IMG/VR virus record: IMGVR_UViG_3300014970_000061
From: a virus
Lineage: Duplodnaviria > Heunggongvirae > Uroviricota > Caudoviricetes
Reading direction: 5' to 3' (one strand)
Length of the DNA stretch: 11,110 nt
Under the pieces are notes generated by a model. It was not told where the DNA came from and did no database searches. It was given only the letters and a program-made list of their open reading frames with translations. This document shows, in pieces, positions 1 to 11,110 of this stretch. The first letter of the stretch is position 1. Every line of letters starts with the position of its first letter. The translations under genes were made by a program, and so were the position numbers.

Positions 1-60
1 ATGCCATTATTATATTTAAACACTAGAGAGTGTCGTTGGTATTTAATGGGGGAAGGTGAG

Positions 61-378
61 ATGAAAAAGATAGCTGCTATATCATTAATTAGTATTTTTA
101 TTATGTCTGGTTGTGCTGTGCATAATGATGAGACAAGTATCGGTAAATTTGGTCTTGCATATAAAAGTAATATTCAGCGTAAACTCGATAATCAATACTA
201 CACCGAAGCCGAAGCTTCTTTAGCCAGGGGCAGAATATCTGGTGCAGAAAATATAGTAAAAAATGATGCAGCCCATTTCTGTGTTACTCAGGGCAAAAAA
301 ATGCAGATAGTTGACCTGAAGACAGAAGGTGCAGGATTACATGGCGTCGCTCGTCTGACATTCAAATGTGGAGAGTGA
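61..378 (+). CDS. Putative lipoprotein (flanking gene, probably outside the prophage)
   Basis: ATG at 61 preceded by GGAAGG (51-56). N-terminus MKKIAAISLISIFIMSGC has a basic n-region, hydrophobic core and lipobox-like MSGC. Lies left of the att core, AT-rich. Start at 61 preferred over the longer ORF-track start at 1. Confidence 0.55.
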   Translation: MKKIAAISLISIFIMSGCAVHNDETSIGKFGLAYKSNIQRKLDNQYYTEAEASLARGRISGAENIVKNDAAHFCVTQGKKMQIVDLKTEGAGLHGVARLTFKCGE

Positions 379-536
379 GAATATTTTTTGGTAAGCATCA
401 AACATGCGCGTTCTGGTTGTGCTTAGCCGGAACCTGTGCGAGCACGATGCCGTTACGTGAAAGGCATCGTGCTATGAAGGGAGATTCTATCGATGTGGTC
501 AATGGAAGACGGTGACCAGGGATAGGGCTTATGCAT

Positions 537-563
537 AAAAAATAAGCCCGTGTAAGGGAGATT
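537..563. other. Attachment-site core (attL of the prophage / attP-type core), aaaaaataagcccgtgtaagggagatt
   Basis: 27-bp sequence matches my recollection of the phage P2 attP core. It lies 80 bp beyond the integrase stop, where P2 places attP. Leftward sequence is not P2 ogr, consistent with a prophage-host junction. Confidence 0.55.
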
Positions 564-642
564 TAGGGTGTCACCAGTAGGGGCTTTCAACGGTACAATG
601 CGGGTTTGAGCGGCATAAATTACCACTGAAAGCCCTTAAACG

Positions 643-1656
643 TTACTCTACTGTGGACACTGTGTGGACACTCTCGGCTTCAGTACCACCTCTTAGCGGA
701 TTAAGAGAAATGGCGTCCTGAAGGTACTCTGGCGCAAAATGAGCGTAAACCATAGTTTGCTCAATCCGCGTGTGACCTAGTATCCGTTGTAGTGTGATAA
801 TACTTCCTCCATTAATCATGAAATGAGTGGCAAAGCTGTGCCTTAGTGCATGTGTGGCTTGCCCCGTTGGCAAATCCGGTTTTATTGCTTTCATTGTTCG
901 TCTGAAGCGAGGGTAATCAGCATCAGGGAATAAAAAACCTCGTTTGTTATCCGCGATCATTTTGGCAACAGCCTCTGAGATCGGGACGGTGCGTGGTTTG
1001 TTTGTTTTCGTTTTAACAAACGTGACGCGGTTATGGATGATATTTTCTGCTTTCAAACGAGCTGCTTCTCCCCAACGTGCTCCTGTACTCAGGCAAAGAA
1101 TCGCAATCTTTTTATTGTCGCCGTCAAGTGCTGCAAGCAGTAAGGCAATTTCTTCCTGTGTGAGATAGCCTGTTTCTGGTTTTTCCTCCTTAAGCCTCTT
1201 TGTCCCTCTGATAGGGTGCTCACCAAAGAATAACTCCGCTTCAATCAGGGCTGTAAACATGCCGCTAATACATGTTAAATCACGATTGATACTCGAAGGT
1301 TTAATACCCTGACTTCTTCGGGTGGCGCAGTACTGGCTGATAAGGGATTTCGTGATTTGAAATGCGCATGGGTCATTCGTTATTTTTGTGAAGATTTCAA
1401 TTTTTCCAAGATTAGATTTCCCATGCTCTTCGTGTTTACCCTTTAAATCCCACCAGATCTGTGTCAGTTCCGACAGACGTCGTTTGTCTGTTGGTTTTGA
1501 TAGCCATTCTTTATTGTGGTGGTTGTACAACGTGTATTTTTCGAAAGCGACAGCTTCGCTTTTCTTATCAAACTTCCTACGGATGCGTTTTCCGTTACGT
1601 CCAGTAGGGCGGATGTCCACTTCATATCGACCATCATCGAGTTTTTTGATTGCCAT
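643..1656 (-). CDS. int: Tyrosine recombinase, P2-type integrase (337 aa)
   Basis: ORF 643..1656 with ATG at 1656-1654 and GGAGGG 7 nt upstream. C-terminal catalytic region has HALRHSFATHF, LGH and MVYAH (tyrosine nucleophile region), typical of phage integrases. Position next to the att core. Confidence 0.95.
   Translation of the reverse strand: MAIKKLDDGRYEVDIRPTGRNGKRIRRKFDKKSEAVAFEKYTLYNHHNKEWLSKPTDKRRLSELTQIWWDLKGKHEEHGKSNLGKIEIFTKITNDPCAFQITKSLISQYCATRRSQGIKPSSINRDLTCISGMFTALIEAELFFGEHPIRGTKRLKEEKPETGYLTQEEIALLLAALDGDNKKIAILCLSTGARWGEAARLKAENIIHNRVTFVKTKTNKPRTVPISEAVAKMIADNKRGFLFPDADYPRFRRTMKAIKPDLPTGQATHALRHSFATHFMINGGSIITLQRILGHTRIEQTMVYAHFAPEYLQDAISLNPLRGGTEAESVHTVSTVE
652..671. promoter_or_regulatory. 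Direct repeat TGTGGACAC x2 at 11-bp spacing (candidate integrase arm-type binding sites)
   Basis: tgtggacac at 652-660 and 663-671, one helical turn apart, inside the 3' end of int on the int-proximal arm. A one-mismatch copy tgtggtca lies at 494-501 on the other side of the core. Confidence 0.4.
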
Positions 1657-3960: not shown

Positions 3961-4232
3961 GTATTCGTATTGAAATTGGCGAACGTTATGTCGTTACCAG
4001 TGACAGCTTTCAGTTTATTCTCCACGAGAAAAAGAGAGCGGAAAGCGGTAAAAACGCCGGTCAGGAATGGCTGGCGGTGGTTGGTTATTACCCGAAATTA
4101 AGCCAGCTCGTTTCCGGCCTGATGCATCACGATATTCTGACCGGAAGCGCAAAGTCTTTTGCTGATTTAAACGCGCAGGTTGAGCAACTCAGCAAGCGTT
4201 GTTCAGAGGCTTTTGGCTCATATGGCCGTTAA
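3957..4232 (+). CDS. Small early-operon protein (P2 orf83-like), 91 aa
   Basis: ATG at 3957, translationally coupled to the upstream gene. 3' end overlaps the A start by 11 nt. Confidence 0.6.
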   Translation: MSIRIEIGERYVVTSDSFQFILHEKKRAESGKNAGQEWLAVVGYYPKLSQLVSGLMHHDILTGSAKSFADLNAQVEQLSKRCSEAFGSYGR

Positions 4233-6507
4233 AGCCTCCGGGCGTTTTGTCCCTCCGTCAGCATTTGCCGCAGGCACCGGTAAGACGTTTACCGGTGCTT
4301 ATGCGTGGAACGCGCCACGCGAGGCTGTCGGGCGCGAAAGACCCCTTACACGTGACGAGATGCGTCAGGTGCAAGGTGTTTTATCCACGATTAACCGCCT
4401 GCCTTACTTTTTGCGCTCGCTGTTTACTTCACGCTATGACTACATCCGGCGCAATAAAAGCCTGGTGCACGGGTTTTATTTCCTCACATCCACTTTTCAG
4501 CGTCGTTTATGGCCGCGCATTGAGCGTGTGAATCAGCGCCATGAAATGAACACCGACGCGTCGTTGCTGTTTCTGGCAGAGCGCGACCAGTATGCGCGCC
4601 TGCCGGGGATGAATGACAAGGAGCTGAAAAAGTTTGCCGCCCGAATCTCATCGCAGCTTTTCATGATGTATGAGGAACTCTGCGATGCCTGGGTGGATGC
4701 GCATGGCGAAAAAGAATCGCTGTTTACGGATGAGGCGCAGGCTCACCTGTATGGTCATGTTGCTGGCGCTGCACGTGCTTTCAATATTTCCCCGCTTTAC
4801 TGGAGAAAATACCGTAAAGGACAGATGACCACGAGGCAGGCATATTCTGCCATTGCCCGTCTGTTTAACGATGAGTGGTGGACTCATCAGCTTAAAGGCC
4901 AGCGTATGCGCTGGCATGAAGCGTTACTGATAGCTGTCGGGGAGGTTAATAAAGACCGCTCACCTTATGCCAGTAAACACGCCATTCGTGATGTGCGTGC
5001 ACGCCGCCAGGCAAATCTGGAATTTCTTAAATCGTGTGACCTTGAAAACAGGGAAACCGGCGAGCGCATCGACCTTATCAGTAAGGTGATGGGCAGTATT
5101 TCTAATCCTGAAATTCGCCGGATGGAGCTGATGAACACCATTGCCGGTATTGAGCGTTACGCTGCCGCAGAGGGTGATGTGGGGATGTTTATCACGCTGA
5201 CCGCGCCGTCAAAGTATCACCCGACACGTCAGGTCGGAAAAGGCGAAAGTAAAACCGTCCAGCTAAATCACGGCTGGAACGATGAGGCATTTAATCCAAA
5301 GGATGCGCAGCGTTATCTCTGCCGTATCTGGAGCCTGATGCGCACGGCATTCAAGGATAATGATTTACAGGTCTACGGTTTGCGTGTCGTCGAGCCACAC
5401 CACGACGGAACGCCGCACTGGCATATGATGCTTTTTTGTAATCCACGCCAGCGTAACCAGATTATCGAAATCATGCGTCGCTATGCGCTCAAAGAGGATG
5501 GTGACGAAAGAGGAGCCGCGCGAAACCGTTTTCAGGCAAAGCACCTTAACCGGGGCGGTGCTGCGGGATATATCGCGAAATACATTTCAAAAAATATCGA
5601 CGGCTATGCACTGGATGGTCAGCTCGATAACGATACCGGTAAGCCGCTTAAAGATACTGCCGCGGCTGTTACCGCATGGGCGTCAACGTGGCGCATCCCG
5701 CAATTTAAAACGGTTGGACTGCCGACAATGGGGGCTTACCGTGAACTACGCAAATTGCCTCGCGGCGTCAGTATTGCTGATGAGTTTGACGAACGCGTCG
5801 AGGCTGCTCGCGCTGCCGCAGACAGTGGTGATTTTGCGTTGTATATCAGCGCGCAGGGTGGGGCAAATGTCCCGCGCGATTGTCAGACTGTCAGGGTTGC
5901 CCGTAGCCCGTCGGATGACGTTAACGAGTACGAGGAAGAAGTCGAGAGAGTGGTCGGCATTTACGCGCCGCATCTCGGCGCGCGTCATATTCATATCACC
6001 AGAACGACGGACTGGCGCATTGTGCCGAAAGTTCCGGTCGTTGAGCCTTTGACTTTAAAAAGCGGCATCGCCGCGCCTCGGAGTCCTGTCAATAACTGTG
6101 GAAAGCTCACCGGCAGTGATACTTCGTTACCGGCTCCCACACCTTATGAACATGCCGCAGCCGTGCTTAATCTGGTTGATGACGGTGTTATCGAATGGAA
6201 TGAGCCAGAGGTCGTGAGGGCGCTCAGAGGTGCATTAAAACACGAACTGAGAACACCAAATCGTCAGCAGAGAAACGGAAGCCCGTTAAAACCACATGAA
6301 ATAGCGCCATCGGCCAGACTGACCCGGTCGGAACGAACGCAAATTACCCGTATCCGCGTTGACCTTGCTCAGAACGGTATCAGGCCGCAGCGATGGGAGC
6401 TTGAGGCGCTGGCGCGTGGCGCGACCGTAAATTATGACGGGAAAAAATTCACGTATCCGGTCGCTGATGAGTGGCCGGGATTCTCAACAGTAATGGAGTG
6501 GACATAA
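4222..6507 (+). CDS. A: Replication initiator A, HUH-superfamily rolling-circle endonuclease (761 aa)
   Basis: Internal ATG at 4222 gives 761 aa, matching P2 A. HUH metal-binding motif in PHWHMMLF. Paired catalytic tyrosines in YIAKYISK, as in phiX174 gpA (YVAKYVNK). In P2 the origin lies within A, but I could not pinpoint it here. Confidence 0.9.
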   Translation: MAVKASGRFVPPSAFAAGTGKTFTGAYAWNAPREAVGRERPLTRDEMRQVQGVLSTINRLPYFLRSLFTSRYDYIRRNKSLVHGFYFLTSTFQRRLWPRIERVNQRHEMNTDASLLFLAERDQYARLPGMNDKELKKFAARISSQLFMMYEELCDAWVDAHGEKESLFTDEAQAHLYGHVAGAARAFNISPLYWRKYRKGQMTTRQAYSAIARLFNDEWWTHQLKGQRMRWHEALLIAVGEVNKDRSPYASKHAIRDVRARRQANLEFLKSCDLENRETGERIDLISKVMGSISNPEIRRMELMNTIAGIERYAAAEGDVGMFITLTAPSKYHPTRQVGKGESKTVQLNHGWNDEAFNPKDAQRYLCRIWSLMRTAFKDNDLQVYGLRVVEPHHDGTPHWHMMLFCNPRQRNQIIEIMRRYALKEDGDERGAARNRFQAKHLNRGGAAGYIAKYISKNIDGYALDGQLDNDTGKPLKDTAAAVTAWASTWRIPQFKTVGLPTMGAYRELRKLPRGVSIADEFDERVEAARAAADSGDFALYISAQGGANVPRDCQTVRVARSPSDDVNEYEEEVERVVGIYAPHLGARHIHITRTTDWRIVPKVPVVEPLTLKSGIAAPRSPVNNCGKLTGSDTSLPAPTPYEHAAAVLNLVDDGVIEWNEPEVVRALRGALKHELRTPNRQQRNGSPLKPHEIAPSARLTRSERTQITRIRVDLAQNGIRPQRWELEALARGATVNYDGKKFTYPVADEWPGFSTVMEWT

Positions 6508-6959
6508 TGGCAAAAATTCACGAGGTAAAGCTGCACGCAAAATATTTCGACCTTGTGCTGGAAGGAAAGAAACGTGCAGAGTTCCGGAAAAATGACCGTA
6601 ATTATGAGCGCGGGGACACGTTGATTTTGTATGAATGGGTGCAGGGTGTGTATACGGGGCGAAATGTTGAAGCCCGGATAACAGATGTTACTGACCTGTC
6701 AGACTGGCTGGAAGATTATGTCTTGCTAAGTATTGAGCTGCTTAATACAGGCGCATATGAGATTGTGAACTGGAAAGAACTTAGTGAGCGTGGCCTGGTA
6801 TTCAGAATTAATCATGAAATTATGCATCAGCTCGGCCTTGCTGTTATGTATGAACCAGAGACGGGGATGTCTGGCGGGGCAATGGTTGCCACGGATGGAG
6901 CATGGAACTATTCAGATGAACAGATGGAGCGTGCACAGCAAAACGGGTGGCTTGGATAA
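6507..6959 (+). CDS. DUF3850/ASCH-like (PUA-fold) protein (P2 orf91-like position), 150 aa
   Basis: ATG at 6507 overlapping the A stop (TAATG). N-terminal KIHEVKLHAKYFDLVLEGKKRAEFRKNDRNYERGDTLILYEW resembles the DUF3850/ASCH motif (RKNDR). Domain call is from memory. Confidence 0.65.
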   Translation: MAKIHEVKLHAKYFDLVLEGKKRAEFRKNDRNYERGDTLILYEWVQGVYTGRNVEARITDVTDLSDWLEDYVLLSIELLNTGAYEIVNWKELSERGLVFRINHEIMHQLGLAVMYEPETGMSGGAMVATDGAWNYSDEQMERAQQNGWLG

Positions 6960-7165
6960 TGCACAGAATACCAGGCGAGATACCGCACCATAAAACTAAA
7001 AATATCAAGCTGATGGCTATTGTTCAGCGTTTACAGCGGATTATGGTCAACGAAAATCTGACGCCCGATGAGCTGGTCGGGTGTGCCGAAATAGTCCGGG
7101 ATAATTACGGGCGGTTTAACCATATCGGTCAGTCCAGAGTTGCGCCACCACAACGCAGACGATAG
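6959..7165 (+). CDS. Small hypothetical protein, 68 aa, coupled to the upstream gene
   Basis: ATG at 6959 overlapping the upstream stop (TAATG). Basic C-terminus (PPQRRR). No recognisable domain. Last ORF before the AT-rich cargo. Confidence 0.4.
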   Translation: MHRIPGEIPHHKTKNIKLMAIVQRLQRIMVNENLTPDELVGCAEIVRDNYGRFNHIGQSRVAPPQRRR

Positions 7166-7339
7166 AGAACGCCGCCAGTCGTGAAACTTGTTTTCAGGGC
7201 TGGCGGGGTTGAATAACGAGTGTCGCGAGGCGTTAGTTTGAGCTTACAATTAAACCTATTGAAAATTAATGAGAAGTCAATTTTATCTTTTTCTCGTTAA
7301 AGATGGCCACAACTACTAAAACGTGAGAATATCAAGACT

Positions 7340-7407
7340 TGGCAAAATCTAGCTTTTCCCAACGGGGTGTTTCGCTATAATACGCGGTCGGTTTTTAGGA
7401 GGGGTCA
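7340..7407 (+). promoter_or_regulatory. Candidate sigma70 promoter and RBS for the methyltransferase gene
   Basis: Perfect -10 hexamer TATAAT at 7376-7381 with a weak -35 (cttttc region). AGGAGG at 7397-7402, 5 nt before the ATG at 7408. Confidence 0.35.
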
Positions 7408-8346
7408 ATGCCAACTGTAGTTTCACTTTTTTCTGGATGTGGTGGTTCTGATGCGGGAGTTTTGAACGCAGGTTTCAATGTGCTTATGGCAAATGATATT
7501 TTGCCTTACGCAAGGGACGTTTACTTAGAAAACCATCCTGAAACTGACTACATTTTGGGCGATATCTCAGGGCTCCAGTCGTTCCCTTCTGCTGAGTTGC
7601 TCATCGGATGCTATCCTTGCCAAGGATTTAGTCAAGGTGGGGCAAGGAAGGCAGATAGAAAGATTAATACACTATATTTAGAGTTTGCCCGTGCTTTGAG
7701 TAAAATTAAGCCAAAAGCATTCATTGTAGAGAATGTCTCTGGTATGGTAAGGCGTAACTTTGAGCATTTATTAAAGGATCAATTCAAAGTTTTCGAAGAA
7801 GCAGGTTATACAGTAAGCTCGCAAATTCTGAATGCGTCCCATTATGGGGTATCCCAAGATAGGAAGCGAATCTTTATCGTAGGAATACGAAAGGACTACG
7901 GTATTACATACAAATTTCCAAAACCAACACATGGTGATGGTTTGACACCATATTCCACAATTCGTGATGCTATTGGGCATATGCCTGTTTGGCCTGTTGG
8001 CGAGTTTTATGACGCCGATTTTCATTGGTATTATCTATCGCGAAACCGTAGGCAAGATTGGGATCAGATATCTAAAACAATTGTTGCAAATCCTAGACAT
8101 ATGCCTCTACATCCAATAAGTCCAACATTAGAAAAATTGGGACCTGATAAGTGGCAATTTACTTCGGATGCACCAGCTCGTAGGTTTAGCTATCGAGAGG
8201 CTGCTATTTTACAAGGTTTTGGGGATTTAATTTTCCCAGAAACTGAACGGGCTTCTATTAATATGAAATATACTGTGGTAGGTAATGCAGTACCGCCTCC
8301 ATTGTTTGAGGCGGTTGCTAGAAACCTTCCAGATTTATGGGATTAA
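7408..8346 (+). CDS. DNA (cytosine-5)-methyltransferase, 312 aa
   Basis: Canonical C5-MTase motifs in order: motif I LFSGCGG (AdoMet binding), motif IV GCYPCQGFSQGG (catalytic Cys in PCQ), motif VI ENV (FIVENVSGM), motif VIII QDRKR, C-terminal VVGNAVPPPLFEAV. Small size implies a short target-recognition domain. Confidence 0.92.
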   Translation: MPTVVSLFSGCGGSDAGVLNAGFNVLMANDILPYARDVYLENHPETDYILGDISGLQSFPSAELLIGCYPCQGFSQGGARKADRKINTLYLEFARALSKIKPKAFIVENVSGMVRRNFEHLLKDQFKVFEEAGYTVSSQILNASHYGVSQDRKRIFIVGIRKDYGITYKFPKPTHGDGLTPYSTIRDAIGHMPVWPVGEFYDADFHWYYLSRNRRQDWDQISKTIVANPRHMPLHPISPTLEKLGPDKWQFTSDAPARRFSYREAAILQGFGDLIFPETERASINMKYTVVGNAVPPPLFEAVARNLPDLWD

Positions 8347-9368
8347 GCAGCGATCGCGCTGGAAGGATCAAGGATGATATCTAGATAGCTAATATTTTGA
8401 CTGTGATCAATATTATCAGATGCTCTGGTTAAATTGATTAATCTTAGGCGATCAACAAAAATAGCATCGCCTAACTTATTTTTATGCGCCCACTCACCAT
8501 CTATCCATCGTAGATCTTGAGGTAAGAAATAATAAGTTGCCCATCGGTGAGCTACGGGGAATTTACTGTAGAGCATCGCAGGTGAGGCCTCAAGCTGCTT
8601 CGCTTCCCACTCTTCTTGAGAACAGCCACACTGAACAAAAGAAATAGGGATGGCATCTCGTTGATCTCCCATTGGATGCCAGGCAATTATGTCAAGGCCT
8701 CCGTCACCACTATTTCCTCGACTGAAATCTCGTTCTTTGAAGTTCGCTGTGCAACGGATATCGGAAGCAATACTCTTAAATTTATTATATAGAGTTCCAG
8801 TGTAAGGGGCCGCTTGACCACCAGAAGCCCAGCATGCTTTTATTATGCTACCGCTAGGCATTAGGCTTTCAAAAATAGGTAAACTAATTAGTTCAAAACT
8901 GCGCGTTATCTCTCTTCTGCTCATTATGTTGACATATTTTATGTTAGCACAGATTAGTAAAGCTAAATATAGTCTTTCTAAATGTTCCAGTGGCTTTTCT
9001 GATATATCACGTAACTCTACAGTATCGTTGTCTTCTGATAAAGTAAAAGGGTAACTATCCCCAAATAAATCAATGCGTTGTCGTATGAAGCCTATCGCAT
9101 AGCTCCACTTTCTGTCAGTATATGCTCGACTAACACTTCGTTTTGTTCTCTTGCGTACAGGCGTATCATTTTCATCATCAACATCATAAACGCCCTCTTC
9201 TTCTGCTTCATCTGTTTCAGCTAGTACTGCTTCGGGTTGAGCTTGCAGTGTGCTATATAGGTCTCCTCGACTGAATGACCTGTCGATATTAGTTAAGGCC
9301 AATATCTCAATATAATCAGCCCATAAATAAGGCTCATTAGAAGGCATTGAATCAAGATTTGTAATCAT
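8343..9368 (-). CDS. Uncharacterized protein with a possible Mrr-like PD-(D/E)xK nuclease signature, about 341 aa (start uncertain)
   Basis: Long minus-strand ORF whose stop overlaps the MTase stop (TTAA at 8343-8346). GDGGLDIIAW followed about 20 aa later by FVQCGCSQEEWEAK resembles the GDGGID ... (V/I)QxK core of Mrr-type nucleases, but with Gly where the Lys is expected. Acidic then basic linker (ETDEAEEEGVYDVDDENDTP / VRKRTKRSVSR). In-frame starts at 9452, 9380 and 9368; 9368 chosen because GGAGG lies 12 nt upstream and it sits 4 nt after the upstream stop. Confidence 0.7.
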   Translation of the reverse strand: MITNLDSMPSNEPYLWADYIEILALTNIDRSFSRGDLYSTLQAQPEAVLAETDEAEEEGVYDVDDENDTPVRKRTKRSVSRAYTDRKWSYAIGFIRQRIDLFGDSYPFTLSEDNDTVELRDISEKPLEHLERLYLALLICANIKYVNIMSRREITRSFELISLPIFESLMPSGSIIKACWASGGQAAPYTGTLYNKFKSIASDIRCTANFKERDFSRGNSGDGGLDIIAWHPMGDQRDAIPISFVQCGCSQEEWEAKQLEASPAMLYSKFPVAHRWATYYFLPQDLRWIDGEWAHKNKLGDAIFVDRLRLINLTRASDNIDHSQNISYLDIILDPSSAIAA

Positions 9369-9372
9369 AATC

Positions 9373-10446
9373 TCAATCATCCTCCCTTTTGCTTCTGATC
9401 TGATTTCTAATATTTTTTGACATCTCAAAAATTTCAGATGCAGCCTCTTCATGCTCTAATGTTAATTCTTTAGCTTTAAGTAGCATATCCCAAACTACTC
9501 TTAATTTAACACTAGCTGCGTTTAGTGCTTTATCTAATGCTTCTCTTTCTCCGCTGGTATATAGATATGCTTCATCCAAGTTTGAACTTTTCATGAGAAT
9601 TTCAATTGCTTCGGGTTTCTCAACCACTGCTGCAATATCTTTTATTCTTCGAGACTCACCGATGATGGTTCTACCTTGTTGGTCAGGCACAAAAAACCAA
9701 GAGAATAAACGCTTAAGGTTTTCTTCATTTAAATTTGGGTCTAAAAAATCCTTTTTATCCTGTAGACCTAACCAGTTTGTGATTTTTGAATATCCCAAAG
9801 CTGTGGTTATATATGAAAATTCCACGTCAGAAGCCTTCATGGGTAAATTAAAAAACTCATGGTCATGCGCGACTTCATATAAGTTCAGTGCAGTGAGAAG
9901 TGTTGCAACATAATGTGGTTTACTCCCAATCTCACGAGCCAGATTTTTTAATACTATCTCTTTAGGCTCATGTGAATAAAAAGTATCACATAACTCTTTA
10001 AGGTATTTGGCTTTAGATAATGAGTCCCATTCTTTGACCCCAGTTATATGACGATAACCGATATATCTCAGTACATCCTCTCGGTTTTCATAAATGATGC
10101 AGGGAAGCTTCTTAGGTTTATTGGTAGTATCATCAATGATTTCTTGCACACCTTTAAGTTTTCTTTTTGGAGGAAGCAGATCTCCATTGAGCAACTTTAC
10201 AGCAGCTAAGCGTCTGTTTCCCTCAACCACGATGTAGTTTCCATTGCTTTTTACTGCCAATAAAGGTTCTCCAGGAAAGTAACCTTGCTGACCGATTGAT
10301 AGCATTAGATCGTGGACACTTTCGTCATCTAACATTTCCTCAATGACTGTTGCAGCGTTACTGGCATCATTGAGACGAAAGAAACGTGGGTTTTTAGGGT
10401 CAAAATCAAGCTTATTTGTCTCAATTTCTACGATTTTGTTATCCAT
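9373..10446 (-). CDS. ParB/Srx-superfamily (ParB N-terminal domain) protein, 357 aa from the ATG at 10446
   Basis: N-terminus MDNKIVEIETNKLDFDPKNPRFF ... LMLSIGQQGYFPGEPLLAVKSNGNYIVVEGNRRLAAVKLL parallels the ParB N-terminal domain (I..L..P.NPR box and GxRRxxA arginine patch). GAGG 5 nt upstream of the ATG at 10446. Longer ORF-track start at 10578 lacks an RBS. C-terminal 250 aa has no motif I recognise. Confidence 0.8.
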   Translation of the reverse strand: MDNKIVEIETNKLDFDPKNPRFFRLNDASNAATVIEEMLDDESVHDLMLSIGQQGYFPGEPLLAVKSNGNYIVVEGNRRLAAVKLLNGDLLPPKRKLKGVQEIIDDTTNKPKKLPCIIYENREDVLRYIGYRHITGVKEWDSLSKAKYLKELCDTFYSHEPKEIVLKNLAREIGSKPHYVATLLTALNLYEVAHDHEFFNLPMKASDVEFSYITTALGYSKITNWLGLQDKKDFLDPNLNEENLKRLFSWFFVPDQQGRTIIGESRRIKDIAAVVEKPEAIEILMKSSNLDEAYLYTSGEREALDKALNAASVKLRVVWDMLLKAKELTLEHEEAASEIFEMSKNIRNQIRSKREDD

Positions 10447-10673
10447 CTTAACCTCATGGGATGATGTAAATATCTTTTGGGGGATGCTTGATAAAACATC
10501 CATATTTGATCGTTTGCAGCGCATTTGATACATCGAAGTGTACAAAAATGCTGGGCATAACTCTGCATTAAAATGCATTCACATTCAAAGAACTATTTTC
10601 TCGTTGGACATTTAGCCCAAGAGAGTTTGGACGGCTTTTGGAATTGCATCAAAACCGACCCATGAAGCGGGCG

Positions 10674-10692
10674 GGCGAGGCGGGGAAAGCAC
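10674..10692. other. Phage cohesive-end site (cos), ggcgaggcggggaaagcac
   Basis: 19-nt sequence matches my recollection of the P2 cohesive end. GC-rich, and located between the last right-arm gene and the first late gene, as expected in a prophage. Confidence 0.65.
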
Positions 10693-10834
10693 TGCGCGCT
10701 GGCGGTGGTGCTGATTTTATTTTTTCAGCGTCTGAGCGCGTCGTGATGGCGTTTAGTCGGCCTGCCGGGGCGTTGGTGTGTCTGCGGGGTGTTTTGTACA
10801 GTGGCGAACGTGTGAGGGCGTGATGACGGGGTGT

Positions 10835-10856
10835 AAAAAAGCCGCCCGCAGGCGGC
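10835..10856 (-). terminator. Rho-independent terminator for the minus-strand late gene
   Basis: On the minus strand: GCCGCC-tgcg-GGCGGC hairpin (plus 10841-10856) followed by TTTTTT (complement of the A6 run at 10835-10840), a few nt downstream of the stop at 10862. Confidence 0.55.
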
Positions 10857-10861
10857 GATGT

Positions 10862-11110
10862 TCAGCCGTTGTCAGTGTCCAGTGAGTAGTTTTTAAATCG
10901 GATGACCTCCTGACCGAGCCAGCCGTTTATCTCGCGGATCCTGTCCTGTAACGGGATAAGCTCATTGCGGACAAAGACCTTTGCTACTTTCTCAATATCG
11001 CCCAGCGACCCGACGTTCTCCGGTTTGCCGCCCATCTGCGTATTACCGTGAAGGAGATCGGTGAGTAACATCGATGGAGATCGGTTCGTGTCACTTTCAC
11101 AGAACCGTTT
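10862..11110 (-). CDS. 3' end of a late gene, probably capsid portal protein Q (partial; 5' end beyond the window)
   Basis: Minus-strand ORF ending at 10862, about 170 bp from cos, presumably open to the window edge. In P2 the first gene after cos is Q on the opposite strand. Identity is by synteny only. Confidence 0.5.
   Translation of the reverse strand, partial: KRFCESDTNRSPSMLLTDLLHGNTQMGGKPENVGSLGDIEKVAKVFVRNELIPLQDRIREINGWLGQEVIRFKNYSLDTDNG

What the first reader, a model, noticed from the sequence alone, without database searches (positions are those of the whole stretch)
10579..10861. cos site places the cargo at the extreme right end of the phage chromosome
The 19-nt cos-type sequence at 10674..10692 lies only about 230 bp from the start of the ParB-like gene, with the probable promoter of the minus-strand operon in between. 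In the packaged linear genome the cassette is therefore the terminal genetic unit, and it reads inward from the genome end. Cargo next to cos must coexist with terminase recognition sequences, which constrains where insertions can land.
Basis: partly seen in the sequence, partly recalled or inferred. Interest (0 to 1): 0.4.

Follow-up and report, generated by a model that had tools for sequence, protein, structure and literature searches.

The report
P2-type cos site beside prophage cargo
The 19-base sequence is a genuine P2-family phage packaging (cos) site, and the accessory genes next to it sit in the long-known variable cargo hotspot at the right end of P2-like phage genomes, so the finding is correct but ordinary.

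Summary
Confirmed, but already known. GGCGAGGCGGGGAAAGCAC at 10674..10692 is unique in the window. It is identical to the cosL/cosR annotated in phage P2.

The window is an E. coli P2-like prophage next to yegR. Its accessory region 6400..10673 is 99.5% identical to phage Wphi (orf91, orf92, mth, gp96, gp98) and 100% identical to a 33.5-kb Peduovirus record. Those linear records end and begin exactly at 10673|10674.

P2 has the same layout: its old-tin operon lies on the minus strand, with mRNA starts about 150 bp inside cosR. This gpA-to-gpQ, cos-adjacent locus is the published P2 variable/defence hotspot (Odegrip 2006, Rousset 2022, Vassallo 2022). Rousset's tables list a 'DNA_methylase + hypothetical + ParBc' arrangement there.

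Three refinements:
- No recognisable sigma-70 promoter lies between the gene and cos.
- An inward orientation is not a rule: 18 of 38 distinct cargoes read away from cos and 20 read toward it.
- The reserved zone is larger than the 19-mer. It comprises a 62-bp core (10638..10699) and a phased (T)GCAT array (10555..10578) about 100 to 120 bp inside the right end. Cargo genes reading toward cos never stop closer than 123 nt.

Interest is low.

The parts
10674..10692 (+). The 19-nt cohesive-end segment of cos. The inferred top-strand cut is 10673|10674 and the bottom-strand cut 10692|10693, giving 5' 19-nt overhangs.
   Evidence: Exact and unique match. Identical to the P2 cosL/cosR annotation. 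The 186 record annotates 'top strand cut at 5' end and bottom strand cut at 3' end'. The linear records Wphi and OU784549 end and begin here.
10638..10699 (.). Conserved cos core, offsets -36 to +26 from the cut. It is shared by P2-type phages and P4-type satellites. On the minus strand it contains a hairpin plus T-run (10658..10672) and the motif TTGCATCAAAA.
   Evidence: Per-position conservation is 85-100% in 100 distinct flanks anchored on the 19-mer. Identity is 87% to P2 and 85% to 186. It corresponds to the '55-bp core' of Ziermann & Calendar 1990 as quoted in PMC5694545. The terminator-like hairpin is reported.
10555..10578 (.). Phased array of three GCAT motifs, starting at 10555, 10565 and 10575 (offsets -119, -109, -99) and spaced 10 bp apart. 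Candidate accessory packaging element; this role is inferred.
   Evidence: Of 60 lineages with unrelated spacers, 58 have at least 2 GCAT in -140..-85, against 2.7% of control windows. The cos-proximal copy is at -100 +/-1 in 48 of 60, and the dominant spacing is 10 bp. The array is also present in the P2, Wphi, 186, PSP3 and P4 reference records.
10579..10637 (.). Spacer between the GCAT array and the cos core. Its sequence varies between lineages but its length is nearly fixed.
   Evidence: Conservation falls to background from -95 to -37, yet the array keeps its distance from the cut.
10447..10554 (-). Untranslated leader of the minus-strand gene pair. Any cargo promoter should lie here or overlap the array, but none is recognisable.
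   Evidence: The best position-weight score is 7.09 (CTGCAA at 10519, 17-nt spacer, TTTTAT at 10496), below the shuffle median of 8.67. The same matrix ranks the mapped P2 old promoter first. The consensus scan finds none, but it also misses P2 Pold.
9373..10446 (-). gp98, a protein of 357 aa with a ParB N-terminal-like domain. It is the first gene of the minus-strand pair and the gene nearest cos.
   Evidence: PGAP start and product name on identical DNA. Matches: PADLOC PD-Lambda-5_A, N-terminal ~150 aa, E 3e-24, and PDC-M38A, E 9e-25; PHROG ParB-like, E 6e-9. Pfam ParB_N scores only 15.3 bits, below its threshold. It is Wphi gp98.
8343..9380 (-). gp96, 345 aa, a predicted restriction-endonuclease-like (PD-(D/E)xK) protein. 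It overlaps the gp98 stop by 8 nt.
   Evidence: No Pfam or PADLOC hit. The AlphaFold model has pLDDT 91. The best PDB fold hits are MspJI (E 9.5e-4) and EcoT38I (E 0.067), but TM-scores are low at about 0.25. The motif GDGGxD...QxG...K is invariant in 43 homologues.
7408..8346 (+). C5-cytosine DNA methyltransferase (Wphi mth). It converges on gp96 with a 4-nt overlap.
   Evidence: Pfam DNA_methylase, E 9.9e-62. PADLOC methyltransferase models, E 1e-110. Annotated in Wphi.
10700..10834 (.). Non-coding stretch between the cos core and the Q terminator. It is conserved in P2-type phages only.
   Evidence: 80-100% per-position conservation in P2-type loci and none in P4-type loci. 89% identical to P2.
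10835..10856 (-). tQ, the rho-independent terminator of the late P-Q operon: stem 10841..10856 followed by a T-run.
   Evidence: Terminator scan. The homologous P2 feature tQ is annotated at 160..181.
10862..11110 (-). 3' end of portal gene Q. The reading frame is open to the edge of the window.
   Evidence: Translation shows no stop up to the window edge. PGAP names it 'phage portal protein' on identical DNA. P2 Q lies at the homologous position.

Best explanation
Window 10638..10699 is the functional core of a P2-family cos site in a Wphi-type P2-like prophage of E. coli, integrated next to yegR.

From established P2 biology, not tested here: the terminase (gpM + gpP) recognises cos on replicated circular DNA. 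It nicks the top strand at 10673|10674 and the bottom strand at 10692|10693. The packaged linear genome then has 19-nt 5' cohesive ends. Portal gene Q becomes the first gene of the left arm. The low-GC accessory cassette becomes the last unit of the right arm; it comprises the methyltransferase mth, the predicted nuclease gp96 and the ParB_N-like gp98, roughly 7240..10550. The gp98 -> gp96 pair is read inward.

This is the same slot that holds old and tin in P2, namely the gpA-to-gpQ variable region or 'defence hotspot' adjacent to cos.

The cos-side limit of that hotspot is set by packaging sequences that extend about 125 bp into the right arm. They consist of the core up to -36, a spacer of fixed length and free sequence, and a phased (T)GCAT array at about -100, -110 and -120. 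I infer that the array is an accessory terminase-binding element.
For: Shown here:
- The 19-mer is an exact, unique match to the annotated P2 cos.
- 10639..10861 is 91-93% identical to many Peduovirus genomes. The core is 87% identical to P2 and 85% to 186.
- Gene order is int, C, cox, B, A, orf91, cargo, cos, tQ, Q, as in P2.
- The cargo is 99.5% identical to the Wphi right end and 100% identical to OU784549, and those linear records terminate at 10673|10674.
- In P2 the old-tin operon is on the minus strand, with mRNA starts at 33424/33426, about 150 nt from cosR.
- GC is 36-41% in the cargo, against 51-56% in gene A.
- The conserved core, the GCAT array and a gene-free zone of at least 123 nt are seen across about 100 distinct loci.

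Literature:
- The table of arrangements at this locus includes 'DNA_methylase + hypothetical + ParBc'.
- Vassallo et al. name it 'P2 defence hotspot #1' (PMC9519451).
- The 55-bp cos core and the earlier hotspot papers are quoted in PMC5694545.
Against: - Nothing in the window proves that this copy is still cut and packaged, because only about 11 kb of the prophage is visible.
- The cut positions are taken from P2 and 186 annotation and from record ends, not measured for this element.
- The packaging role of the GCAT array is inferred from position and conservation only.
- I could not read Ziermann & Calendar 1990, so I do not know whether it defines or refutes such a requirement.
- No promoter for the inward-reading pair is recognisable.
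Confidence: 0.93

Rival explanations
1. The cos sequence is a relic in a defective (cryptic) P2-like prophage. It is never cut, so the 'terminal position' of the cargo has no present biological meaning.
For: - Only 11 kb of the element is visible.
- Nearly every complete E. coli genome (5,418 of 5,426) matches part of the yegR-int flank.
- From my own knowledge, not tested here: P2-like remnants are common in E. coli.
- In 2 of the 104 genomes carrying this cassette, an IS5-family element interrupts it.
Against: - Every phage gene in the window is intact: int, C, cox, B, A, orf91, and the Q 3' end is open to the window edge.
- 6400..10861 is 100% identical to a complete 33,562-bp Peduovirus record, and the cargo is 99.5% identical to that of the viable phage Wphi.
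- The cos core and the array carry no disabling changes relative to the consensus.
Confidence: 0.1
2. The conserved GCAT array at 10555..10578 is not a packaging element. Instead it is a transcriptional element, either a promoter or operator for the cos-proximal cargo or a binding site for a host nucleoid protein.
For: - In P2 the -35 hexamer (TTGAAT) of the mapped old promoter overlaps the distal GCAT copy.
- The region is AT-rich.
- No experiment links the array to terminase.
Against: - The array is equally conserved in 186 and in P4, where the neighbouring genes (orf97, psu) read toward cos and no outward-reading gene exists.
- It is kept whatever the cargo and whichever way the cargo is oriented.
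- Its distance to the cut is fixed at -100 +/-1 in 48 of 60 lineages, although the spacer sequence is unrelated.
- The only things these elements share are the cos site and the terminase.
- phiCTX has its own repeated motif (GCAGAAA) flanking its cos, matching its own core-proximal motif.
Confidence: 0.2
3. The inward-reading gp98-gp96 pair has no promoter of its own. It is expressed by read-through of late P-Q transcription across cos, which would make it a lytic-cycle function rather than a lysogenic-conversion function.
For: - No sigma-70 promoter above chance lies in 10447..10673 on the minus strand.
- The pair is co-directional with Q.
Against: - Two terminator-like structures lie in between: tQ at 10835..10856 and the cos-core hairpin with T-run at 10658..10672.
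- P2 old at the same position has its own constitutive promoter.
- Weak or activator-dependent promoters escape matrix scans.
- Relatives of gp98 (PD-Lambda-5) defend when cloned with their native upstream DNA into a vector that has no upstream promoter.
Confidence: 0.15

Closest known systems
Phage P2 right end: old-tin operon next to cosR (NC_001895)
   Same: - Identical 19-nt cos.
- Same backbone order: A, orf91, cargo, cos, tQ, Q.
- Cargo operon on the minus strand reading inward, starting within about 150-230 nt of the cut.
- Same GCAT array and core.
   Different: - The cargo genes are unrelated: old is an ATPase/nuclease and tin is a different gene, against methyltransferase + gp96 + ParB_N-like here.
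- P2 has a mapped promoter (TTGAAT, 17-nt spacer, TAAAAA) overlapping the array. The window has no recognisable one.
Phage Wphi (NC_005056 / AY135739) genes orf91, orf92, mth, gp96, gp98
   Same: The same cassette at 99.5% DNA identity, in the same place and orientation. The record ends at the base corresponding to window 10673.
   Different: - The Q-side leader (10700..10861) is only 90% identical.
- In E. coli SMS-3-5 the identical cassette sits in a prophage next to cpxP whose integrase is annotated at a different length, whereas here the prophage lies next to yegR. The cassette is therefore shared by mosaic backbones.
P2-like 'TO region' / defence hotspot #1 between gpA and gpQ (Odegrip 2006; Rousset 2022, PMC9122126; Vassallo 2022, PMC9519451)
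   Same: - Exactly this locus, described as directly adjacent to cos.
- Size similar to the reported mean: about 3.3 kb here, 3.2 kb reported.
- An arrangement 'DNA_methylase + hypothetical + ParBc' is listed in the table of arrangements at this locus.
   Different: Nothing structural differs. This cassette has not been tested for defence in those papers as far as I could read.
P4-like satellite hotspot next to cos (Rousset 2022)
   Same: It shares the -36..+26 core and the GCAT array, and is packaged by the same terminase.
   Different: In P4 the variable cargo lies on the other side of cos, beyond +26 in the left arm. The array side is the conserved psu end.
186-related prophages carrying retrons Ec67/Ec86 between cos and a terminator (Dodd & Egan 1996, cited in PMC5694545); phiCTX with ctx next to cosL
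   Same: Foreign genes are placed immediately beside cos in P2-family genomes.
   Different: In phiCTX and the Ralstonia phages the cargo lies between cosL and Q, on the left arm. phiCTX also has a different repeat motif.
PD-lambda-5 anti-phage system (Vassallo 2022)
   Same: gp98 matches PD-Lambda-5_A profiles (E 3e-24). A methyltransferase is part of both, and both occur in prophages.
   Different: Only the N-terminal ~150 residues of gp98 align, and gp96 matches no PADLOC model. The window cassette is therefore a relative at most, not a member.

Membership tests
P2-family (Peduoviridae) cos site | 19-nt cohesive-end sequence GGCGAGGCGGGGAAAGCAC | tested here: met
   Exact, single copy at 10674..10692. 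0 of 200 shuffles matched. Identical to the P2 cosL/cosR annotation.
P2-family (Peduoviridae) cos site | Conserved core of about 55-60 bp around the cohesive ends, shared with satellite P4 | tested here: met
   The block -36..+26 (10638..10699) is conserved at 85-100% per position in 100 distinct P2- and P4-type loci. Identity is 87% to P2 and 85% to 186. The core is quoted in PMC5694545.
P2-family (Peduoviridae) cos site | Position between the end of the early/replication arm (A, orf91, accessory genes) and the terminator and 3' end of portal gene Q | tested here: met
   ORF map and family scans, the tQ terminator, the P2 annotation and PGAP annotation of identical DNA.
P2-family (Peduoviridae) cos site | Linear virion genomes of the same phage type begin and end at this site | tested here: met
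   Wphi NC_005056 starts with the 19-mer and ends at the base matching window 10673. OU784549 has its ends at 10673/10674. Whether those ends were mapped experimentally is not stated in the records.
P2-family (Peduoviridae) cos site | Cleavage by gpM/gpP terminase producing 5' 19-nt overhangs in this element | not testable with these tools
   This needs virion DNA from the lysogen.
P2-like cos-adjacent variable/defence hotspot (TO region) | Variable gene content between conserved gpA/orf91 and cos/gpQ in otherwise syntenic phages | tested here: met
   2,157 E. coli genomes match the flanks but only 104 carry this cargo. Phage records share 6400..~7238 and 10639 onward but not the interior. 41 distinct cargo-side flanks were found among the P2-type loci. 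GC falls to 36-41%.
P2-like cos-adjacent variable/defence hotspot (TO region) | Cargo confers anti-phage defence or another lysogenic-conversion trait | not tested
   Homology only: a C5 methyltransferase, a restriction-endonuclease-like fold and the N-terminal domain of PD-Lambda-5_A.
PD-lambda-5 defence system | Full-length homologues of both PADLOC components | tested here: not met
   gp98 aligns only to profile positions ~1-160 of the 428-526-residue A models. gp96 has no PADLOC hit.
Type II restriction-modification system | A methyltransferase plus a cognate endonuclease | tested here: inconclusive
   The methyltransferase is clear (Pfam E 9.9e-62). gp96 is only fold-similar to MspJI/EcoT38I-type nucleases, with E 9.5e-4 and TM about 0.27. 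No sequence family matches it.
ParB/Srx N-terminal domain proteins | Match to Pfam ParB_N (PF02195) above the gathering score | tested here: inconclusive
   15.3 bits against a cut-off of 26.3. However, the PHROG ParB-like families match at E 6e-9, and NCBI names the protein 'ParB N-terminal domain-containing protein'.

The most novel reading that the evidence does not exclude
The gene-free zone of about 125 bp on the cargo side of cos may be an extended packaging signal. Its distal part would be a helically phased (T)GCAT array at -100, -110 and -120, bound by the P2 small terminase subunit. This would resemble lambda cosB, but lie on the right-arm side and be shared with P4.

Cargo promoters such as P2 Pold are built into or against this array. 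Terminase occupancy and cargo transcription could therefore interfere with each other. The array, rather than the 19-mer, would set the physical limit for gene capture in the hotspot.

I could not establish whether Ziermann & Calendar (1990) or later work already describes this.
Probability: 0.25. Interest if true: 0.35.

Novelty: already known. Interest (0 to 1): 0.12.

Why it matters
As stated, the finding re-derives textbook P2 genome organisation. Accessory and defence genes (old and tin in P2, this same cassette in Wphi) sit at the right end next to cos, and that locus is an established hotspot for anti-phage systems. Its practical value is annotation: it fixes the virion genome ends, the right boundary of the cargo (about 10550) and the identity of the prophage. 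The one piece that may add something is the comparative definition of the reserved zone (core, fixed-length spacer, phased GCAT array, no ORF end within 123 nt of the cut). If the array proves to be a terminase site, it would explain where cargo can be inserted and would help in designing minimal P2/P4 cos cassettes for transducing particles.

Tried and rejected
- **Consensus promoter scan of 10300..11110** found nothing. I do not count this as evidence of absence, because the same scan misses the experimentally mapped P2 old promoter.
- **My own position-weight scan** recovers P2 Pold as the top hit. In the window it gives only sub-chance candidates, so no promoter is assigned.
- **Comparison with the diverged orthologous cassette of phage vB_EcoM-12474III**, done to find a conserved promoter. 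The proteins are only 32% and 25% identical, the upstream DNA does not align, and MAFFT mis-placed a gap.
- **Primary cos papers.** Attempts to read Odegrip 2006 and Christie & Calendar 2016 failed because they are not held. Ziermann & Calendar 1990 could not be consulted either; I know it only through papers that cite it. The P4 cosmid papers give no minimal-cos data, and the terminase review has no detail.
- **Rfam scan of the window:** no RNA family at gathering threshold.
- **Generic repeat finder on 10440..10870:** only short chance-level repeats. It does not report the GCAT array as a family because the units are too short.
- **The longer ORF start at 10578 for the ParB-like gene** was rejected in favour of 10446.
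- **A truncated Q gene**, suggested by the 69-aa entry in the ORF list, was rejected: the frame is open to the window edge.

Full report
**1. What is at the coordinates**

The sequence GGCGAGGCGGGGAAAGCAC occupies 10674..10692 on the + strand. It occurs once in the window. None of 200 dinucleotide-preserving shuffles gave a match, even with three mismatches allowed. It is identical to the features annotated 'cosL; left cohesive end' (1..19) and 'cosR; right cohesive end' (33575..33593) in phage P2, NC_001895.

The 283-bp interval of the finding matches 109 phage records, mostly Peduovirus from Escherichia, Yersinia and Salmonella. Identity is 91-93% from about 10636-10646 rightwards.

- P2: 87% identity in 10638..10699 and 89% in 10700..10861.
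- 186: 85% identity in 10638..10699 and 55% in 10700..10861.
- Left of 10638, identity is about 40% for both.

**2. Context**

The window runs as follows:
- the host gene yegR (1..378);
- a P2-type integrase (643..1656, minus strand);
- C repressor, cox, B and several small ORFs;
- replication gene A (4180..6507);
- an orf91-like DUF3850 gene and a small orf92;
- a C5-cytosine methyltransferase (7408..8346, + strand);
- a 345-aa gene (8343..9380, minus strand);
- a ParB_N-like gene (9373..10446, minus strand);
- cos;
- a rho-independent terminator on the minus strand (10835..10856);
- the 3' end of portal gene Q (from 10862, minus strand), with its frame open to the window edge.

This is the prophage-permuted order of P2.

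The start of the ParB-like gene is 10446, not the longest-ORF start at 10578. Three things support this: PGAP annotates 10446 on identical DNA, the PADLOC profiles begin aligning at residue 45, and a GAGG lies 6 nt upstream.

**3. Identity of the element**

Window 6400..10673 is 99.5% identical to the right end of phage Wphi (NC_005056 positions 28404..32684, where 32684 is the last base of the record). Wphi annotates orf91, orf92, mth, gp96 and gp98 there, and its record starts with the 19-mer.

A 33,562-bp Peduovirus record, OU784549, is 100% identical on both sides and has its two ends at window 10673 and 10674.

In RefSeq, 104 complete E. coli genomes carry at least 80% of 6400..10900. A further roughly 2,050 genomes match only the flanks.

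The cargo has 36-41% GC, against 51-56% in gene A.

**4. The same layout in P2, and the literature**

In P2 the old-tin operon lies on the minus strand immediately inside cosR, with mapped mRNA starts at 33424/33426, about 150 nt from the cut.

Published descriptions of the locus:
- Rousset et al. [quoted passage not shown] They cite Odegrip 2006 for the earlier observation.
- Their table of arrangements at this locus lists 'DNA_methylase + hypothetical + ParBc'.
- Vassallo et al. 2022 (PMC9519451) call the same place P2 defence hotspot #1.
- PMC5694545 quotes the 55-bp cos core of Ziermann & Calendar 1990, and quotes Dodd & Egan 1996 and Nakayama 1999 for cos-adjacent gene capture.

The finding is correct and already known.

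**5. How far the packaging constraint reaches**

A scan of IMG/VR for the exact 19-mer returned 120 loci. These gave about 100 distinct cargo-side flanks. Half are P2-type, with the Q side conserved. Half are P4-type satellites; the P4 reference right end is identical to one of these clusters.

Anchoring all of them on the cut gives three results.

(i) A solid block is conserved from -36 to +26 (window 10638..10699) in both types. P2-type loci stay conserved as far as Q. P4-type loci diverge after +26, which is where the P4 hotspot lies.

(ii) From -95 to -37 the sequence is not conserved.

(iii) Further out, nearly all loci carry (T)GCAT motifs.
- Among 60 lineages whose spacers are less than 70% identical, 58 have at least two GCAT in -140..-85, against 2.7% of control windows.
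- 36 of the 60 have at least three, against 0.3% of controls.
- The cos-proximal copy is at -100 +/-1 in 48 of 60, and the dominant spacing is 10 bp.
- The consensus is TGCATnAnTTTGCATG, and no conservation is seen beyond about -125.
- The window has GCAT at 10555, 10565 and 10575.
- The array is also in the reference records of P2, Wphi, 186, PSP3 and P4.

In 186 and P4 the neighbouring genes (orf97, psu) read toward cos, so the array is not a cargo promoter. A fixed distance across an unrelated spacer points to a function tied to the cut site. I infer an accessory terminase-binding element. This is untested.

phiCTX, a distant family member, has annotated repeats R4-R6 around its cos. Its repeated motif, GCAGAAA, matches its own core-proximal motif, which fits the same logic.

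ORF positions agree. In 38 distinct P2-type cargoes, the 20 whose nearest large ORF reads toward cos stop at least 123 nt before the cut, most of them 123-160 nt away. The cos-nearest gene reads away from cos in 18 cases and toward it in 20, so 'reading inward' is not a rule of the locus.

**6. Promoter**

The consensus scan finds none, but it also misses the mapped P2 old promoter.

My position-weight scan ranks that P2 promoter first. It scores 9.84 as TTGAAT, 17-nt spacer, TAAAAA, which fits the annotated starts, and its -35 hexamer overlaps the distal GCAT copy. In window 10447..10673 on the minus strand, the best score is 7.09, below the median best score of shuffled sequence (8.67).

Expression of the pair in the lysogen therefore remains open. 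A weak or activated promoter is possible. So is read-through past tQ and past the cos-core hairpin with its T-run at 10658..10672.

**7. The cargo, briefly**

- **The methyltransferase** is a clear C5 enzyme (Pfam E 9.9e-62).
- **gp98** matches the N-terminal ~150 residues of PD-Lambda-5_A profiles (E 3e-24) and PDC-M38A, and PHROG ParB-like families. Pfam ParB_N is below threshold.
- **gp96** has no family hit, but 203 homologues exist across Proteobacteria.
  - A model built from 43 of them has pLDDT 91.
  - Its best PDB fold matches are restriction endonucleases: MspJI (E 9.5e-4), EcoT38I (E 0.067), then SgrAI, Bse634I and FokI. TM-scores are low.
  - A GDGGxD...QxG...K motif is invariant in the family.

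A diverged version of the whole trio (32% and 25% protein identity) sits at the same place in phage vB_EcoM-12474III.

The likeliest reading is a restriction-modification-like defence module with a ParB_N-type accessory protein, related to but not a member of PD-lambda-5. This is inference from homology.

**8. Verdict**

- Observation: confirmed.
- Interpretation: supported, except for the unsupported promoter.
- Novelty: none for the claim as made.
- The GCAT array and the 125-nt gene-free zone are the only points that might go beyond the papers I could read. I could not check the 1990 primary paper.

Noticed in passing
window 10555..10578 (and offsets -125..-95 in L006..L125, L002, L003, L126-L128): A phased array of (T)GCAT motifs, 10 bp apart, lies at a fixed distance of about 100 nt from the cos cut. 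It is conserved in P2-type phages, 186, PSP3 and P4-type satellites, although the intervening 58-bp spacer is unrelated in sequence. In P2 the -35 hexamer of the old promoter overlaps it.
   Followed up: yes
L006..L125, P2-type loci, offsets -160..-123: Cargo ORFs that read toward cos end at least 123 nt before the cut, mostly 123-160 nt away. The orientation of the cos-nearest cargo gene is unbiased (20 toward, 18 away).
   Followed up: yes
window 10622..10734: A mosaic junction lies at or near cos. The window is 98-100% identical to Wphi on the cargo side and through the cos core, but only 90% identical in the Q-side leader (10700..10861). OU784549 is 100% identical on both sides. This is compatible with recombination at or near cos, as Rousset et al. 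speculated.
   Followed up: partly
window 8343..9380 (-): gp96 is a 'hypothetical protein' with no Pfam or PADLOC family, but it has at least 203 homologues, including in Enterobacteria and Betaproteobacteria. A confident model (pLDDT 91) has restriction endonucleases (MspJI, EcoT38I) as its best fold matches. The motif GDGGxD...QxG...K is invariant.
   Followed up: partly
window 8343..8346 and 9373..9380: The gene packing is tight. The methyltransferase (+) and gp96 (-) converge and overlap by 4 nt, leaving no room for terminators. gp98 and gp96 overlap by 8 nt, which suggests translational coupling.
   Followed up: no
L129 (phage vB_EcoM-12474III) 1345..4381: A strongly diverged orthologous trio of methyltransferase, gp96-like and ParB_N-like genes (25-32% protein identity for the last two) occupies the same slot in the same orientation. 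The three-gene architecture is therefore conserved as a unit.
   Followed up: partly
window 1..642; L005 1..2300: The same cargo is found in prophages at different sites: next to yegR here and next to cpxP in E. coli SMS-3-5, where the integrase is annotated at a different length. The right arm or cassette therefore moves between P2-like backbones.
   Followed up: partly
hits H46 and H49 (NZ_CP173544, NZ_CP193883): In two E. coli genomes the cassette is interrupted by an IS5-family element.
   Followed up: no
window 6471..6959: The orf91 homologue is longer than P2 orf91 (about 150 aa on the PGAP start, against 109 aa). It carries a DUF7415 C-terminal extension in addition to the DUF3850/ASCH domain.
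   Followed up: no
window 10658..10672 (-) and L002 7557..7576 (-): Read on the minus strand, the conserved cos core forms a terminator-like GC hairpin followed by TTTT(A/G)ATGCA, just inside the right end. It could insulate the cargo from late-operon read-through, or it could be a structural feature of cos.
   Followed up: no
L130/L131 (phiCTX NC_003278) around cos: phiCTX carries repeated GCAGAAA(G) motifs on the right-arm side of its cos (annotated repeats R4-R6), and its ctx cargo lies on the left-arm side between cosL and Q. The side of cos that receives cargo therefore differs between genera of the family.
   Followed up: partly
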